Of a stretch of 64,000 nucleotides of DNA, positions 6,401 to 13,954 are shown in pieces. The DNA is from an uncultured Bacilli bacterium. GTDB taxonomy: Bacteria; Bacillota_I; Bacilli_A; RF39; UBA660. The stretch is taken from positions 10,746-74,745 of the forward strand of contig CALVKM010000002.1 in NCBI GenBank assembly GCA_944332705.1, in the 5' to 3' direction. The notes under the pieces are model-generated. The model saw only the letters and a list, made by a program, of their open reading frames with translations, was not told the origin of the DNA and did not search any database. The position numbers were made by a program, and so were the translations under genes. Within the stretch, counting starts at the first letter, position 1; each line of letters starts with the position of its first letter.

Positions 6401-6628
6401 CTACCTTTTCATTATAGATTTAGGATATGGTTTTCTCTCATCTGTTAAATATAATATATAATCAATACTAGTATTATAAAATTCAGCAAGCTTTTTTAAA
6501 TATTCTAAAGGAATATTTACTTTCTCAAGTTCATATTTACTATAATTCGATTGATCTATTTTTAAATAATCAGCAATATCTTTTTGATATAAATCTTTGT
6601 CTTCTCTTAATTCTTTTAATCTGTTCAT
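6401..6628 (-). CDS. XRE-family HTH regulator
   Basis: RLKELRE..QKDIA..YSKYE..SIDY pattern. Confidence 0.9.
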   Translation of the reverse strand: MNRLKELREDKDLYQKDIADYLKIDQSNYSKYELEKVNIPLEYLKKLAEFYNTSIDYILYLTDERKPYPKSIMKR

Positions 6629-6721: not shown

Positions 6722-8164
6722 ATGCATATAAAAAAGAAAGTATTGTTATTAAGTAGTGTGTTACTAACATTAATTATAATGGCTGGTGTTGTTTTTATTA
6801 TTAATAGAAAAGATTATTCTAATGAATTAGTTTTAAATAATGATAAAAATTTAATTAGCAATTCATTTTTAACTTTAATGTTAGAACAAAGTGATGGAAC
6901 ATACCAGGAATCCACTTCTAATACTTGGCCAGGAGAAGGTTACATTTTTAATAGTGAATTATCTAAATGCCAAAATGGAGGAGAACTAGATTATGATAGT
7001 GAAAATAATAAAGTAATACTATATTCAAATAAATCTGATGGATGTTATGTGTACTTTGATTTATATACTAAACCAACAATAAATAGTATCAATCTAGGAG
7101 AGGTAACGAATGATTGAATAACAGTAAGTGTAAGTGCTACTAATGGAACAAATGAAATAAGTAATTATTACTATATAATAAATGATGGAACACCAGTAAG
7201 TACTACAAGTAATACCTATACATTTAGTGAATTAAGTGCCGGTCAAACATATACTATCAAAGTATATGTTGTAGATACAGAAGGTTATTCATCTGATACA
7301 TCTAGTTTAAATGTAGAAACAGAAAATATTCCATTATTATTGGCAGAAATATGTAATAACGGAGATAATTTAGCAAATTGTATTATAAGTTTTTATAATA
7401 CTTCTGGATCTGATATAACAAAAATATATTATCACAATAGCAGTTTAGCTAATGGTGCAGGAGATAACTCATACAGATATGCTGGAGCAAGTGATGAAGT
7501 AAATAATTATGTATGCTTTGGATCAGATGCATCGACATGTACAAGTAATAACTTATATCGTATTATTGGAGTATTTGACGGTCAAGTAAAACTAATAAAA
7601 TCAACAAGTTATGGAAATTATTATTGGAGTGGTTCTAGTTATAATACAGGTAATGCATGGAGTAACAGTACATTAAATACAAGTACTTTAAATGGAACAT
7701 ATTTAAATAATTTAGAAAGTTATTGGAGCAATTTTATAACAAATCACACATGGAAAGTAGGAGAAACGACCTCAAGCCAAAGAAATAATCAGCCATCATT
7801 AGTGTTTGAATACGAAGTAGGAGCAAATAGCAGCAGCACAATATATAGTGCAAAAATAGGTTTAATGTATATAAGTGATTACGGATTTGCAGCAAGTAAT
7901 AGCTATTGGTCAACGACATTAAACAATGCAAATATAAGTATTAATAACTGGTTGTATATGGGGCTTTCCGAATGGACTATTTCCAGCAGCTTGTACCATT
8001 CGGACAGTGCGTTCCTTGTGTATAACCGCGGTGATCTCACTTACACCTATGTCTACGACTTCAACGGCTACCATGCGGTGCGGCCGTCCTTCTATCTTGA
8101 GTCTTCAACTGAATATTCTAGCGGATCTGGGACAGAGTCTGACCCTATTAGAATTGTGGTATAA
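6722..8164 (+). pseudogene. membrane-anchored FN3 + C-terminal CLec-like protein, single in-frame TGA at 7115-7117; candidate DGR target
   Basis: ORFs 6722-7117 and 7340-8164 share one frame; the intervening sequence reads ITVSVSATNGTN... (FN3-like), colinear with paralog 12284-13954. Confidence 0.8.
7946..8101 (+). other. putative DGR variable repeat (VR)
   Basis: GC-rich block; only 1 of 52 codons ends in A; runs of NNC/NNT codons between fixed GCG TTC/GTG/GGT and GCG GTG CGG CCG. Confidence 0.7.
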
Positions 8165-8197
8165 AAAAGAATAATTCGTTCTGAATTATTCTTTTTC
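8163..8197. terminator. bidirectional intrinsic terminator
   Basis: AAAAAAGAATAATTC-GTTCT-GAATTATTCTTTTT between convergent genes. Confidence 0.7.
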
Positions 8198-8413
8198 TTC
8201 TGGTACAGGATATGGTTTATTGACATCTGTTTGATAAAGAATATAATCAATTGAAGTATCATAATACTTTGCCAAATTTATTAAGCAATCTGCAGGTATT
8301 TTTTCTTTACTAGCTTCATATTCATTATACTTTTCTTCATCAATGTTTAGATAATCTGCAACATCTTTTGCCAATAAATCTTTACTTTCACGTAATTCTT
8401 TTAATCTATTCAT
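8186..8413 (-). CDS. XRE-family HTH regulator, paralog of 6401-6628
   Basis: MNRLKELRE...SIDYILY.TD..KPYP shared with 6401-6628. Confidence 0.88.
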   Translation of the reverse strand: MNRLKELRESKDLLAKDVADYLNIDEEKYNEYEASKEKIPADCLINLAKYYDTSIDYILYQTDVNKPYPVPEEKE

Positions 8414-12283: not shown

Positions 12284-13954
12284 ATGAAAAAGAAAGTAAT
12301 ATTGATAAGTAGTGTGTTATTAACATTAATAGTGGTAATTAGTACTATTTTTATTATTAATAAAAATAATTCTAATAATGAAACAGTAATGCAAGATAAA
12401 AAAGCAATTAATAATTCATTTCTAACATTAATGTTAGAAGATGAAACAGGTAATTATGTTAAATCTACATCTAATACATGGCCAAGTGGTAATTATGCTT
12501 TTAATGAGGAATTAAGTAGATGTGAAAATGGGGGAGAACTTAGATGGAATAGAGAAACAGGTATAGTAAATCTTTTATCTAATAAGTCTGATGCTTGTTA
12601 TGTATACTTTGATTTATATAATGTAGTAACTATTACAAATGTATTTGCAACAAAAACAACAAATAGTGTAACATTATCAGTAACAATAGATGCTGGAGAA
12701 AATCCAGTAGCTACATATTACTTTAGTATGGATGGAGGAAAATCATATCAAGAAAGTACAACATCTAGTTATACTTTTAGTAATTTAAATGATAATACAA
12801 CATATACTTTTCAAGTGTATGCCAAAGATACTCTTGGATATGAATCAAATGAAGAAGTAATAGAAGTAACAACAGATGCATATGTAAATCCTACAGTTAA
12901 CAGCGTAACAGCAACAAATGTAACAAATAACGCAATAACAGTAAGTGTATCAGCAACAGCAGGAACAAATAATATTCAAACATATATGTATTCGATAAAT
13001 AATGGAGCATACCAAAGTAGTAGTTCAAATACCCATACATTTAGTGGTTTAAATGCTGGAACAAATTATAATATAAGAGTGTATGTAACAGATACCAATG
13101 GAGTAGATTCAAATGTATATACAATAAATGCCGAAACCGATGATACAATATTGTTAGCAGATGTATGTAGTACTGGAACAAATTTAGCAACATGTTTAAA
13201 AAATTATTATAATGAAGCAGGAACAGAAATGTCTGGAATGTATTATCATACATCAAGTTTAGCTAATTCAGCCGCAGATAATAGTTACAGATATGCCGGA
13301 GCAAACCCAAATAACTATGTATGTTTTGGAAGTGATGCTGCAACATGTCCAAGTGCCAATTTATATCGAATCATAGGAGTGTTTGGTTCGGAAGTAAAAC
13401 TAATTAAAAACACGAGTTATGGGGAATTTTTTTGGAATGGTTCAGGAGAAAGTTCTTATAGTAGCAATTCATGGAATATTAGTAGTCTTAATAGAAGTGA
13501 ATTAAACCAAACTTTTTTAAATCGATTTTCAGCAAATTGGCAAGAAAAAATTTCGACTCACACGTGGTTTGTTGGTGGTATAAATTCAATAGATACACCA
13601 TTAAATATATATAAAGCAGAAAGTTTTTCGGGCAATTATGAATCATACAACTCTAAAATAGGGTTATTATATGCCTCAGATTATGGATTTTCTACTGAAA
13701 GTAGTAATTGGTCATTAGCTATGGGAATGACAAACTATAAAAATAATAACTGGCTGTATCAGGGAAATAATGAATGGACAATTACCCCAAATTCAAGTAA
13801 TAGTGAAAATGTTATGTTAATTAGTAGAAATGGTAATATAATTAATTATTTAGCATATGCTTCAGCATCTGTTAGACCTACATTCTATTTAACATCATCA
13901 GTTCAATATTTAAGTGGTACAGGAACATCTAAGAGTCCCATAAGGATTGCATAG
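12284..13954 (+). CDS. membrane-anchored surface protein, 2x FN3 + C-terminal CLec-like (SVRP.FYL) domain
   Basis: N-terminal TM, two FN3-like repeats, NNYVCFG/LYRIIG/IGL..SDYG/EWT/VRPTFYL motifs. Confidence 0.8.
   Translation: MKKKVILISSVLLTLIVVISTIFIINKNNSNNETVMQDKKAINNSFLTLMLEDETGNYVKSTSNTWPSGNYAFNEELSRCENGGELRWNRETGIVNLLSNKSDACYVYFDLYNVVTITNVFATKTTNSVTLSVTIDAGENPVATYYFSMDGGKSYQESTTSSYTFSNLNDNTTYTFQVYAKDTLGYESNEEVIEVTTDAYVNPTVNSVTATNVTNNAITVSVSATAGTNNIQTYMYSINNGAYQSSSSNTHTFSGLNAGTNYNIRVYVTDTNGVDSNVYTINAETDDTILLADVCSTGTNLATCLKNYYNEAGTEMSGMYYHTSSLANSAADNSYRYAGANPNNYVCFGSDAATCPSANLYRIIGVFGSEVKLIKNTSYGEFFWNGSGESSYSSNSWNISSLNRSELNQTFLNRFSANWQEKISTHTWFVGGINSIDTPLNIYKAESFSGNYESYNSKIGLLYASDYGFSTESSNWSLAMGMTNYKNNNWLYQGNNEWTITPNSSNSENVMLISRNGNIINYLAYASASVRPTFYLTSSVQYLSGTGTSKSPIRIA

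What the first reader, a model, noticed from the sequence alone, without database searches (positions are those of the whole stretch)
7946..8101. Orphan DGR variable repeat at the 3' end of a surface FN3/CLec-like gene (trans-acting DGR target)
Seen: within an A-rich gene, 52 consecutive codons switch to GC-rich composition with only one A-ending codon. Runs of NNC/NNT codons (e.g. TAC ACC TAT GTC TAC GAC TTC AAC GGC TAC CAT) sit between fixed blocks (TCG, GCG TTC, GTG, GGT) and end in GCG GTG CGG CCG. Established: DGR template repeats are AAC/AAT-rich, adenine mutagenesis yields NNY codons, and VRs lie at the C-terminus of CLec-fold domains ending in a G/A-V/F-R motif. Inference: the template would read about AAC AAT TCG AAC AAT GCG TTC AAT GTG AAT AAC AAC GGT AAT CTC AAT AAC AAC AAT GTC AAC... 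GCG GTG CGG CCG. I found no RT, avd or TR in the 64 kb. This would therefore be a chromosomal, remotely targeted surface protein diversified in trans.
Basis: partly seen in the sequence, partly recalled or inferred. Interest (0 to 1): 0.88.

Follow-up and report, generated by a model that had tools for sequence, protein, structure and literature searches.

The report
Orphan DGR variable repeat, probably a relic
The GC-rich stretch is a genuine retroelement-written "variable repeat" at the end of a surface-protein gene, but its template was found nowhere and the gene is broken, so it looks like a leftover and not a working target.

Summary
Window 7946-8101 has GC 0.50 against 0.27 for the window. 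Only 1 of 52 codons ends in A. It is the only GC island in the 64 kb that is not a tRNA.

The stretch is homologous to real DGR variable repeats. The 1.43-Mb genome (a chicken-gut Bacilli MAG near Ca. Onthocola) has 35 copies of this C-terminal domain. It also has four DGR reverse-transcriptase cassettes on other contigs. Nine of the 35 repeats match an assembled template with at most 3 non-adenine mismatches.

This repeat matches none of them: the best template gives 12 adenine and 17 non-adenine mismatches. No compatible template turned up in the assembly, 56 genomes of the genus, JGI metagenome contigs or IMG/VR.

The gene is cut by an in-frame TGA, which is a true stop in this genome. It lacks the strong downstream hairpin of the targeted copies. 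It is a mosaic of paralogues. Sister species carry an ordinary AT-rich end at this locus.

Contigs from three other studies replace the repeat core. The verdict is a DGR-derived orphan repeat, most likely a relic. An unassembled template is not excluded.

The parts
6401..6628 (-). XRE-type helix-turn-helix gene (75 aa), upstream member of a pair of paralogues that flank the target gene
   Evidence: ORF list. The second copy at 8186-8413 begins with the same residues. Sister genomes G072 and G073 have only one such gene and no target gene at this site.
6722..7114 (+). N-terminal part of the target gene: membrane anchor plus N-domain (131 aa), ended by the TGA
   Evidence: Full-length paralogues of 520-760 aa start with the same anchor and domain.
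7115..7117 (+). In-frame TGA that splits one 481-codon frame (6722-8164)
   Evidence: TGA is a true stop here: the 325 TGAs in 585 long TAA/TAG-bounded frames fall 167 and 103 in the first and last deciles and 3-12 in each inner decile. Paralogue C35 reads Ser at this place.
7118..8164 (+). Rest of the frame: FN3-like domain and the about 270-aa C-terminal domain that carries the repeat. The first start codon after the TGA is TTG at 7340 (274-aa ORF).
   Evidence: fn3 E=2.8e-4, 21.5 bits, below the 25-bit cut-off. The 274-aa ORF has no Pfam hit of its own. Of 59 aligned homologues, 14 hit DUF6273 and 17 hit fn3.
7946..7978 (+). Conserved 5' block (N-W-L-Y-M-G-L-S-E-W-T) just upstream of where template homology starts in the real pairs
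   Evidence: 88-93% DNA identity over about 40 nt to many paralogues and to other species. Template homology begins at the following ATT TCC in the C3 pair and the G021 pair.
7979..8086 (+). The variable repeat proper (ATT TCC ... CGG CCG, 108 nt)
   Evidence: Same scaffold as the template/repeat pairs of this genome and of G021. The core 7982-8101 has no other match in the genome at E<=1e-3.
8075..8089 (+). GC-rich 3' end of the repeat (GCGGTGCGGCC GTCC), like the initiation-of-homing site of known DGRs
   Evidence: The G021 pair has almost the same end: GCGGTGAGGCC followed by GTCC in the repeat and by GAGA in the template. The name IMH is recalled from the DGR literature.
8115..8154 (+). 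Weak, degenerate inverted repeat where targeted copies have a strong GC hairpin
   Evidence: -7.9 kcal/mol here, against -14.9 to -22.2 in the five repeats that have a C3-, C52- or C8-type template.
8186..8413 (-). Second XRE-type gene (75 aa), downstream flank

Best explanation
Window 7979-8086 is a variable repeat made by a diversity-generating retroelement. A DGR reverse transcriptase copied a template RNA with errors at adenines, and the cDNA replaced the end of a DUF6273-type (C-type-lectin-like) domain. That history explains the GC-rich, A-poor, NNY-codon segment ending in GCGGTGCGGCC. This copy is now an orphan and most likely a relic. Its template belonged to the lineage of the C3, C8, C52 and G021 cassettes, but it has diverged, been lost, or never lay in this strain. 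The segment probably reached this locus by recombination among the 35 paralogues. The gene around it is broken by a TGA, and the repeat lacks the downstream hairpin of the copies that are being rewritten. Shown here: the homology to real pairs, the missing template, the stop codon, the weak hairpin, the mosaic gene and the sister-species state. Inferred: the mechanism, the relic status and the recombination route.
For: 1) DGRs are real in this genome. There are four RT genes of 354-358 aa, one of them split by an intron. Each follows a target gene, a template, a MutS-domain-I-like ORF and a bAvd-like ORF. The template/repeat pairs differ almost only at template adenines: 20 adenine and 0 other mismatches of 105 positions for C8, 15 and 1 of 107 for C16, 16 and 2 of 113 for C3.
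2) Our segment shares their scaffold, position and GC-rich end. Its GC of 0.49 equals that of repeats with a template (0.42-0.53). Paralogues without the signature have 0.22-0.35.
3) No cognate template was found. The best assembled template gives 12 adenine and 17 other mismatches over 80 aligned positions. A template-compatible scan of the whole assembly found only A-runs. A degenerate pattern with up to 3 mismatches matched only the repeat itself, in 1 of 56 genus genomes. JGI metagenome contigs and IMG/VR gave 0 hits.
4) Orphans are common. Only 9 of 35 copies have at most 3 non-adenine mismatches to a template. Several GC-rich copies without a template are gene fragments, such as C19, C1:21161 and C29.
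5) The gene has an in-frame TGA at 7115-7117 and TGA is a real stop here. By depth arithmetic, a near-identical contig from another study (X2 record 10, 1 other letter in 181) keeps T at 7115 and A at 7117.
6) The downstream hairpin is -7.9 kcal/mol, against -14.9 to -22.2 for all 5 repeats with a C3-, C52- or C8-type template. In phage BPP-1 such an inverted repeat is needed for efficient homing (abstract of PMC3240598).
7) The gene is a mosaic. Its N-terminal part matches C60 at 82-90%, its FN3 part matches C35 at 88-90%, and later pieces match C78, C12 and C16 at 84-88%.
8) At the same site two sister species have an intact gene whose equivalent stretch is ordinary (GC 0.34 and 0.38, usual codons). 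Two others have no gene there at all.
Against: The MAG is only 84% complete in 81 contigs, and DGR cassettes sit at contig ends (C52, C5, C16), so a fifth cassette could be missing. The GC content is as high as in active repeats, so nothing dates the last rewriting. Repeats on other contigs than their template do exist in this genome: C15, C6 and C3:77023 for the C17 template, and C46 for the C3 template. Contigs from three other studies match the flanks at about 98% (9 other letters in 390, 6 in 403) but replace 7990-8112, so the locus changed after the strains split. Ongoing homing could also cause that. Repeats of the C17 type have a matching template but no hairpin (-5 to -8.3 kcal/mol), so a weak hairpin does not prove incompetence. 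A broken gene can still be rewritten by a DGR.
Confidence: 0.6

Rival explanations
1. One reading: the repeat is a live, remotely targeted DGR substrate. Its template and RT lie in the unassembled 16% of the genome or on a mobile element, and the protein or its C-terminal part is diversified in trans.
For: The assembly is incomplete and breaks at DGR cassettes. Other repeats match templates on other contigs. GC is as high as in active repeats. About 45% of the inferred variable first and second codon positions are still A, much as in active pairs (my count from the codons and the pairs). In three other studies the repeat core is replaced while the flanks stay about 98% alike.
Against: No compatible template was found in the assembly, 56 genus genomes, JGI metagenome contigs or IMG/VR. 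An in-frame TGA lies upstream and no membrane anchor is left on the C-terminal ORF. The hairpin is weak. The replaced stretch in other strains runs to 8112, 26 nt past the CGGCCG end. By record arithmetic it is about 144 and 114 letters long instead of 123. One template does not change length or rewrite beyond its own end. Sister species have a non-DGR end at this site.
Confidence: 0.25
2. The variation at this locus comes from recombination or gene conversion among the 35 paralogues and among strains, not from a retroelement acting here. The GC-rich piece was diversified elsewhere and arrived as a passenger cassette. It was never rewritten at this site.
For: The gene is a mosaic. The other strains' alleles differ beyond the repeat end and in length. 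The gene itself is present in some sister species and absent in others, and where present it is only 68-73% alike while the flanks are 90-95% alike. This reading overlaps with the best explanation and differs only on whether homing ever took place at this locus.
Against: No donor copy exists in the assembly. The core 7982-8101 has no other match at E<=1e-3, and the best match in 41 related genomes is 79-81%.
Confidence: 0.1
3. The segment has nothing to do with DGRs. It would be a chance or horizontally acquired GC-rich fragment, or an assembly chimera.
For: Only the lack of a template.
Against: It aligns codon for codon with repeats that have adenine-specific templates in this genome and in G021. 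A 983-nt contig in run X1 covers 7270-8252 with no difference. That run may be the source sample, so it is not independent.
Confidence: 0.03

Closest known systems
DUF6273-type DGR target proteins of gut Bacillota phages (tentaclins of phages nd4 and nd12; Faecalibacterium prophages Lelie, CP11, Roos, Pioen)
   Different: Here the proteins are chromosomal and membrane-anchored, in 35 copies in a 1.4-Mb genome, and are not phage tail proteins. This copy has no template, and the 274-aa ORF itself gets no Pfam hit.
Treponema denticola DGR with remote targets, and other chromosomal DGRs with non-adjacent targets (Wu et al. 2018, PMC5758913)
   Same: One template serves several genes far from the RT. 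That paper assigns 73 non-adjacent targets to 45 of 372 DGRs, with at most seven for one DGR, the Treponema one (passages read). This genome also has repeats that match templates on other contigs.
   Different: Those targets are defined by adenine-only differences from a known template. This repeat fails that test.
DGRs with the MSL (MutS-like) accessory gene, architecture D of Wu et al. 2018, including the Legionella DGR
   Same: The cassettes here carry a small MutS-domain-I-like ORF (30.3 bits in the C8 cassette) and a bAvd-like ORF before the RT. The paper says MSL-bearing DGRs also carry avd.
   Different: These cassettes lie on other contigs, and none of them is linked to this repeat.
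Bordetella phage BPP-1 Mtd target site (GC-rich IMH plus hairpin/cruciform)
   Same: The repeat has a GC-rich end. The targeted copies of this genome have a strong stem-loop downstream. The abstract of PMC3240598 reports such an inverted repeat as needed for efficient homing.
   Different: In this copy the stem-loop is degenerate. In the copies that have it, it sits inside the coding tail about 20-50 nt after the repeat, not immediately after it.

Membership tests
DGR variable repeat (active target of mutagenic retrohoming) | A cognate template repeat that differs from it (almost) only at template adenines | tested here: not met
   The best of 5 assembled templates gives 12 adenine and 17 other mismatches over 80 positions. 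The closest related template, from G021, gives 22 adenine and 15 other mismatches plus 12 unaligned letters. No compatible sequence was found in the assembly, 56 genus genomes, JGI metagenome contigs or IMG/VR. The assembly is 84% complete, so absence is not proven.
DGR variable repeat (active target of mutagenic retrohoming) | A DGR-clade reverse transcriptase in the same genome | tested here: met
   RVT_1 matches of 354-358 aa lie on C8, C17 and C52, and a split one on C3. A motif I-G-N-x-S/T-S-Q occurs in C8, C17 and C3, and I-S-N-M-T-S-Q in C52. That this motif marks DGR RTs is recalled, not tested. All are on contigs other than the window's.
DGR variable repeat (active target of mutagenic retrohoming) | Position at the C-terminal end of a C-type-lectin-like or Ig-like domain | tested here: inconclusive
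   The position matches that of the repeats with a template in the paralogues. Homologues hit DUF6273. A profile search of the PDB sequences gave 0 hits.
DGR variable repeat (active target of mutagenic retrohoming) | GC-rich 3' end shared with the template (IMH-like) | tested here: met
   GCGGTGCGGCC at 8075-8085. The G021 pair has GCGGTGAGGCC in both the template and the repeat, and after it the repeat continues as ours does.
DGR variable repeat (active target of mutagenic retrohoming) | Inverted repeat (hairpin/cruciform) downstream of the repeat | tested here: not met
   -7.9 kcal/mol, against -14.9 to -22.2 in the 5 copies with a C3-, C52- or C8-type template. This is not universal: copies with the C17-type template also lack it.
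DGR variable repeat (active target of mutagenic retrohoming) | Hypervariability in populations confined to adenine-derived positions | tested here: inconclusive
   Only Logan contigs were on offer, not raw reads. Contigs of X2, X3 and X7 join 7989 to 8113 with the part between unknown. The letters could not be read.
Pfam DUF6273 (PF19789) | Match to the family model above its gathering score (23.5 bits) | tested here: inconclusive
   The window's 274-aa ORF has no match at E<=1. Homologues that are 52-53% identical over 99% of it do match: P0048 at 30.9 bits and P0060 at 24.3 bits. In all, 14 of 59 aligned homologues match at E<=0.001.
Fibronectin type III (PF00041) | Match above the gathering score (25 bits) | tested here: inconclusive
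   21.5 bits, E=2.8e-4, for residues 13-61 of the 348-aa frame. Seventeen of 59 homologues match at E<=0.001.

The most novel reading that the evidence does not exclude
The four to five DGR cassettes and 35 paralogous targets of this 1.4-Mb genome form a promiscuous network. Any template of the C3/C8/C52/G021 lineage could overwrite any paralogue that keeps the conserved 5' block and a GC-rich 3' end. One locus would then carry repeats of different template lineages and lengths in different strains. On this reading the 'orphan' here records a template switch, not decay, and the replaced cores seen in three other studies are other templates' products.
Probability: 0.15. Interest if true: 0.65.

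Novelty: new member of a known kind. Interest (0 to 1): 0.4.

Why it matters
The repeat alone is another DGR-type repeat in a known target domain, so it changes little. The setting is worth more. A reduced, uncultured gut Bacilli genome spends about 35 genes and at least four retroelement cassettes on one family of anchored lectin-like proteins. Those copies range from freshly templated to decayed. That spread makes the genome a good place to study how DGR targets are born, moved by recombination and abandoned. It is also a warning that composition alone cannot separate live targets from relics.

Tried and rejected
Alternative genetic code. I considered TGA read as Trp (code 4). I rejected it because TGAs in long TAA/TAG-bounded frames pile up at the frame ends: 167 and 103 in the first and last deciles, 3-12 in each inner decile.

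A profile of 59 homologues found nothing among PDB sequences at E<=10. The protein atlas did not hold the window's protein. For the stored homologue P0048 it returned only DUF6273 or unnamed Bacillota clusters.

Orthologous alleles. Two protein searches gave no relative above 60% and 64% identity, so other strains' alleles could not be read as protein. A 30-letter flank pattern found nothing in JGI metagenome contigs.

Read and contig evidence that must stay here. Depth in bin 7998-8056 was 0 in X2 and X7 and 2.2 in X3. That is no evidence of absence. The length estimates for the replaced cores (about 144 and 114 letters) are my arithmetic from record lengths and 'side' values, and those values may belong to other records. 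Loose ends at 7981-7983 in X2 and X7 probably come from paralogues that share the conserved block. A low-depth joint 7984-to-8077 in X1 (depth 5.8, side 21) was not interpreted. Run X1 may be the source sample, so it is not independent.

Template-compatible scoring without an identity filter only returns A-rich DNA.

The best matches in relatives were checked as possible templates. All 11 are A-poor coding repeats, with A fraction 0.17-0.26.

C44 and C46 were tested as possible population variants of the C3 target. They are paralogues about 89% alike, not variants.

Literature. A search for DGRs in RF39, Tenericutes or Onthocola returned 1,565 papers holding two of the five terms. None of the 12 listed held the DGR term. 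I make no claim about what is or is not in print. Supplementary tables of PMC5758913, which list DGRs per genome, were not open to me and may include relatives.

Full report
OBSERVATION

The stretch 7946-8101 is the last fifth of a gene frame on the + strand. It holds 52 codons with GC 0.50 and 19% A. Only one codon ends in A. The 606 bases of the same ORF before it have GC 0.30, 40% A, and 83 of 202 codons ending in A. The differences are far beyond chance (Fisher p from 3e-6 to 2e-9). In the whole 64 kb (mean GC 0.269) only 0.04% of 156-nt windows reach GC 0.50, and all of them lie here. The only other island above 0.45 is a tRNA-Ala gene.

THE GENE

Reading the frame backwards shows one frame of 481 codons, 6722-8164. 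It is interrupted once, by TGA at 7115-7117. Before the TGA lie a membrane anchor and an N-domain. After it lie an FN3-like domain (21.5 bits, under Pfam's cut-off) and a C-terminal domain of about 270 aa. The first start codon after the TGA is a TTG at 7340.

TGA is a true stop in this genome. Of 325 TGAs inside 585 long frames bounded by TAA or TAG, 167 and 103 fall in the first and last deciles and only 3-12 in each inner decile. Paralogue C35 reads Ser at this place. In run X2, from another study, a 181-nt contig with one difference from the window covers the codon. By depth arithmetic it keeps T at 7115 and A at 7117. The stop is therefore probably real and shared between strains. The C-terminal ORF has no anchor of its own.

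THE FAMILY AND THE RETROELEMENTS

The window is contig C2 of a 1.43-Mb assembly with 81 contigs, 84% complete and about 27% GC. By an aldolase at 93-94% identity, its nearest named relatives are chicken-gut MAGs: Candidatus Onthocola stercorigallinarum and uncultured Bacilli or Tenericutes. All four runs laid are recorded as chicken-gut or plain metagenomes.

tblastn finds 35 copies of the C-terminal domain that reach its end, this one included. Most sit in frames of 520-760 aa with the same anchor. The family is very large in public data: 5365 proteins at E<=1e-30 among the 6936 candidates scored. The window's own ORF gets no Pfam hit. Of 59 aligned homologues, 14 hit DUF6273 and 17 hit fn3. 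DUF6273 is described as a DGR target domain with a C-type-lectin-like model and the variable region at its C-terminal end. I read the relevant passages of PMC10743442 and PMC11792537.

The genome has RVT_1 genes of DGR size on C8, C17 and C52, and a split one on C3. Each follows the order target gene, template, MutS-domain-I-like ORF, bAvd-like ORF, RT, small ORF. This is the MSL architecture of Wu et al. 2018 (passages of PMC5758913). The RTs of C8, C52 and C3 are 83-91% alike. The C17 RT is a separate lineage at 43-47%. A fifth, degenerate template lies at the end of C5 without an RT.

Template/repeat pairs show the DGR signature:
- C8: 20 adenine and 0 other mismatches of 105 positions.
- C16: 15 and 1 of 107.
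- C3: 16 and 2 of 113.
- C17: 11 and 1 of 63.

In all, 9 of 35 copies have at most 3 non-adenine mismatches to an assembled template. Some of these are on other contigs: C15, C6 and C3:77023 for the C17 template, and C46 for the C3 template. Remote targeting is therefore real in this organism.

THIS REPEAT HAS NO TEMPLATE

The repeat aligns codon for codon with those pairs and shares their fixed codons and GC-rich end. It matches none of them as a template. The best, the C8 template, gives 12 adenine and 17 other mismatches over 80 aligned positions. The searches for a cognate template were:
- The core 7982-8101 has no second match in the assembly at E<=1e-3.
- A scan for sequences equal to the repeat or carrying A at every position found only A-runs.
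- A 50-nt degenerate pattern with up to 3 mismatches matched only the repeat itself, in 1 of 56 genomes of the genus.
- A 32-nt version found nothing in JGI metagenome contigs or in IMG/VR.
- The best DNA matches in 41 related genomes are 79-81% identical. All 11 that I examined are themselves A-poor coding repeats.

One relative, G021, has a cassette whose template and repeat end in GCGGTGAGGCC. After it the repeat continues as ours does. That pair has 20 adenine and 2 other mismatches of 107. Against our repeat the same template has 22 adenine and 15 other mismatches plus 12 unaligned letters. Our repeat thus belongs to the lineage of the C3, C8, C52 and G021 cassettes, but its own template is not at hand.

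SIGNS OF A RELIC

First, the stop codon described above.

Second, the hairpin. All five repeats that have a C3-, C52- or C8-type template carry a strong GC stem-loop 12-58 nt after the repeat (-14.9 to -22.2 kcal/mol). So does the C5 copy next to its degenerate template (-17.7). Ours has -7.9, inside the range of the untemplated paralogues, all but one of which (C19, -13.7) lie between -3.1 and -9.6. The G021 cis target folds to -17.0 over 75 nt, against -10.4 for ours. In phage BPP-1 an inverted repeat after the repeat is needed for efficient homing (abstract of PMC3240598). The test is not absolute, because repeats of the C17 type lack a hairpin too.

Third, orphans are the rule. Many GC-rich copies have no template, and some of them are plain gene fragments of 80-110 aa. 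High GC therefore persists after a copy dies.

Fourth, the gene is a patchwork of paralogues.

Fifth, synteny. Between the aldolase and the SDR gene, sister genomes G072 and G073 have no such gene. G074 and G076 have an intact one that is only 68-73% alike, although the flanks are 92-95% alike. Their equivalent stretch is ordinary, with GC 0.34 and 0.38 and usual codons.

SIGNS OF RECENT CHANGE

Contigs of three other studies (X2, X3, X7) follow the window at about 98% identity up to 7989 and resume at 8113, with the part between unknown (tables 5 and 8). The core therefore differs between strains whose flanks are nearly identical. The replaced part extends 26 nt beyond the CGGCCG end. By my arithmetic from record lengths it is about 144 and 114 letters long, against 123 here.

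Adenine mutagenesis from one template changes neither the length nor the sequence past the repeat's end. This pattern fits cassette replacement, either by recombination among paralogues or by homing from a different template. It does not fit simple diversification. I could not read the letters, because only contigs were served and one call was allowed.

VERDICT

- That the segment is DGR-derived: about 0.9.
- That it is an orphan and not rewritten today (a relic, probably moved here by recombination): 0.6.
- That it is a live remote target of an unassembled cassette: 0.25.
- That variation here is recombination only, with no homing ever at this locus: 0.1.
- That it is unrelated to DGRs: 0.03.

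The claim of action in trans is not shown. In kind this is a new member of something known. The interest lies more in the genome-wide system than in this copy.

LIMITS

No structure model could be made. No raw reads were available. The assembly is incomplete. Supplements of the papers were not open.

Noticed in passing
G000 contig C3, about 64449-66334 (locus L010:776-2638): A complete group II intron sits inside the YMDD-coding codons of a DGR reverse transcriptase gene. Rfam gives RF02005 at 140.6 bits and RF00029 at 55.8 bits, and the intron encodes a 431-aa RT/maturase. The flanks start with GTGCG and end in AT. By eye, joining the exons would read Y-M-D-D-F-I-I-M-D, like the intact C52 RT. 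This is one retroelement inserted in another's active-site codons.
   Followed up: partly
G000 contigs C3, C8, C17, C52 (with C16) and C5: There are four DGR cassettes with the order target, template, MutS-domain-I-like ORF, bAvd-like ORF, RT, small ORF. A fifth, degenerate template at the end of C5 is followed by an unrelated gene instead of an RT. Several templates serve repeats on other contigs.
   Followed up: partly
G000 contig C52:2565-4566: Two ORFs of 418 and 254 aa lie between the RT and the small trailing ORF of the C52 cassette. In the C3 and C8 cassettes the trailing ORF follows the RT directly. This looks like an inserted mobile element, but I did not scan the two ORFs.
   Followed up: no
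window 12284-13954 (+): A second, intact 556-aa paralogue of the same family lies in the window. Its repeat-equivalent stretch has GC 0.26 and 40% A, so it has no DGR signature. It serves as an internal control for the composition argument.
   Followed up: partly
window 6401-6628 and 8186-8413 (both -): Two paralogous 75-aa XRE-type genes flank the target gene. Sister genomes G072 and G073 have one such gene and no target gene between the aldolase and the SDR gene. The XRE-plus-target unit therefore looks like a module that is gained or lost as a whole. The C3 target also has an XRE-like gene just upstream.
   Followed up: partly
window 7946-7978 and the same block in paralogues and relatives: The roughly 40-nt block coding N-W-M/L-Y-M-G-L-x-E-W-T is 88-93% identical at the DNA level among paralogues and species whose proteins are otherwise about 50-60% alike. 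It lies just outside the template homology. Possible causes are gene conversion or a DNA-level role in cDNA integration. Neither was tested.
   Followed up: no
G000 contigs C68, C72, C74: Three short contigs have GC 0.50-0.61 in a genome of about 0.27. They are probably contamination of the bin. C68 carries a 607-aa RT frame that does not belong to the DGR set.
   Followed up: no
G000 contig C30:1-72: The contig begins with a run of about 70 A, probably an assembly or read artefact.
   Followed up: no
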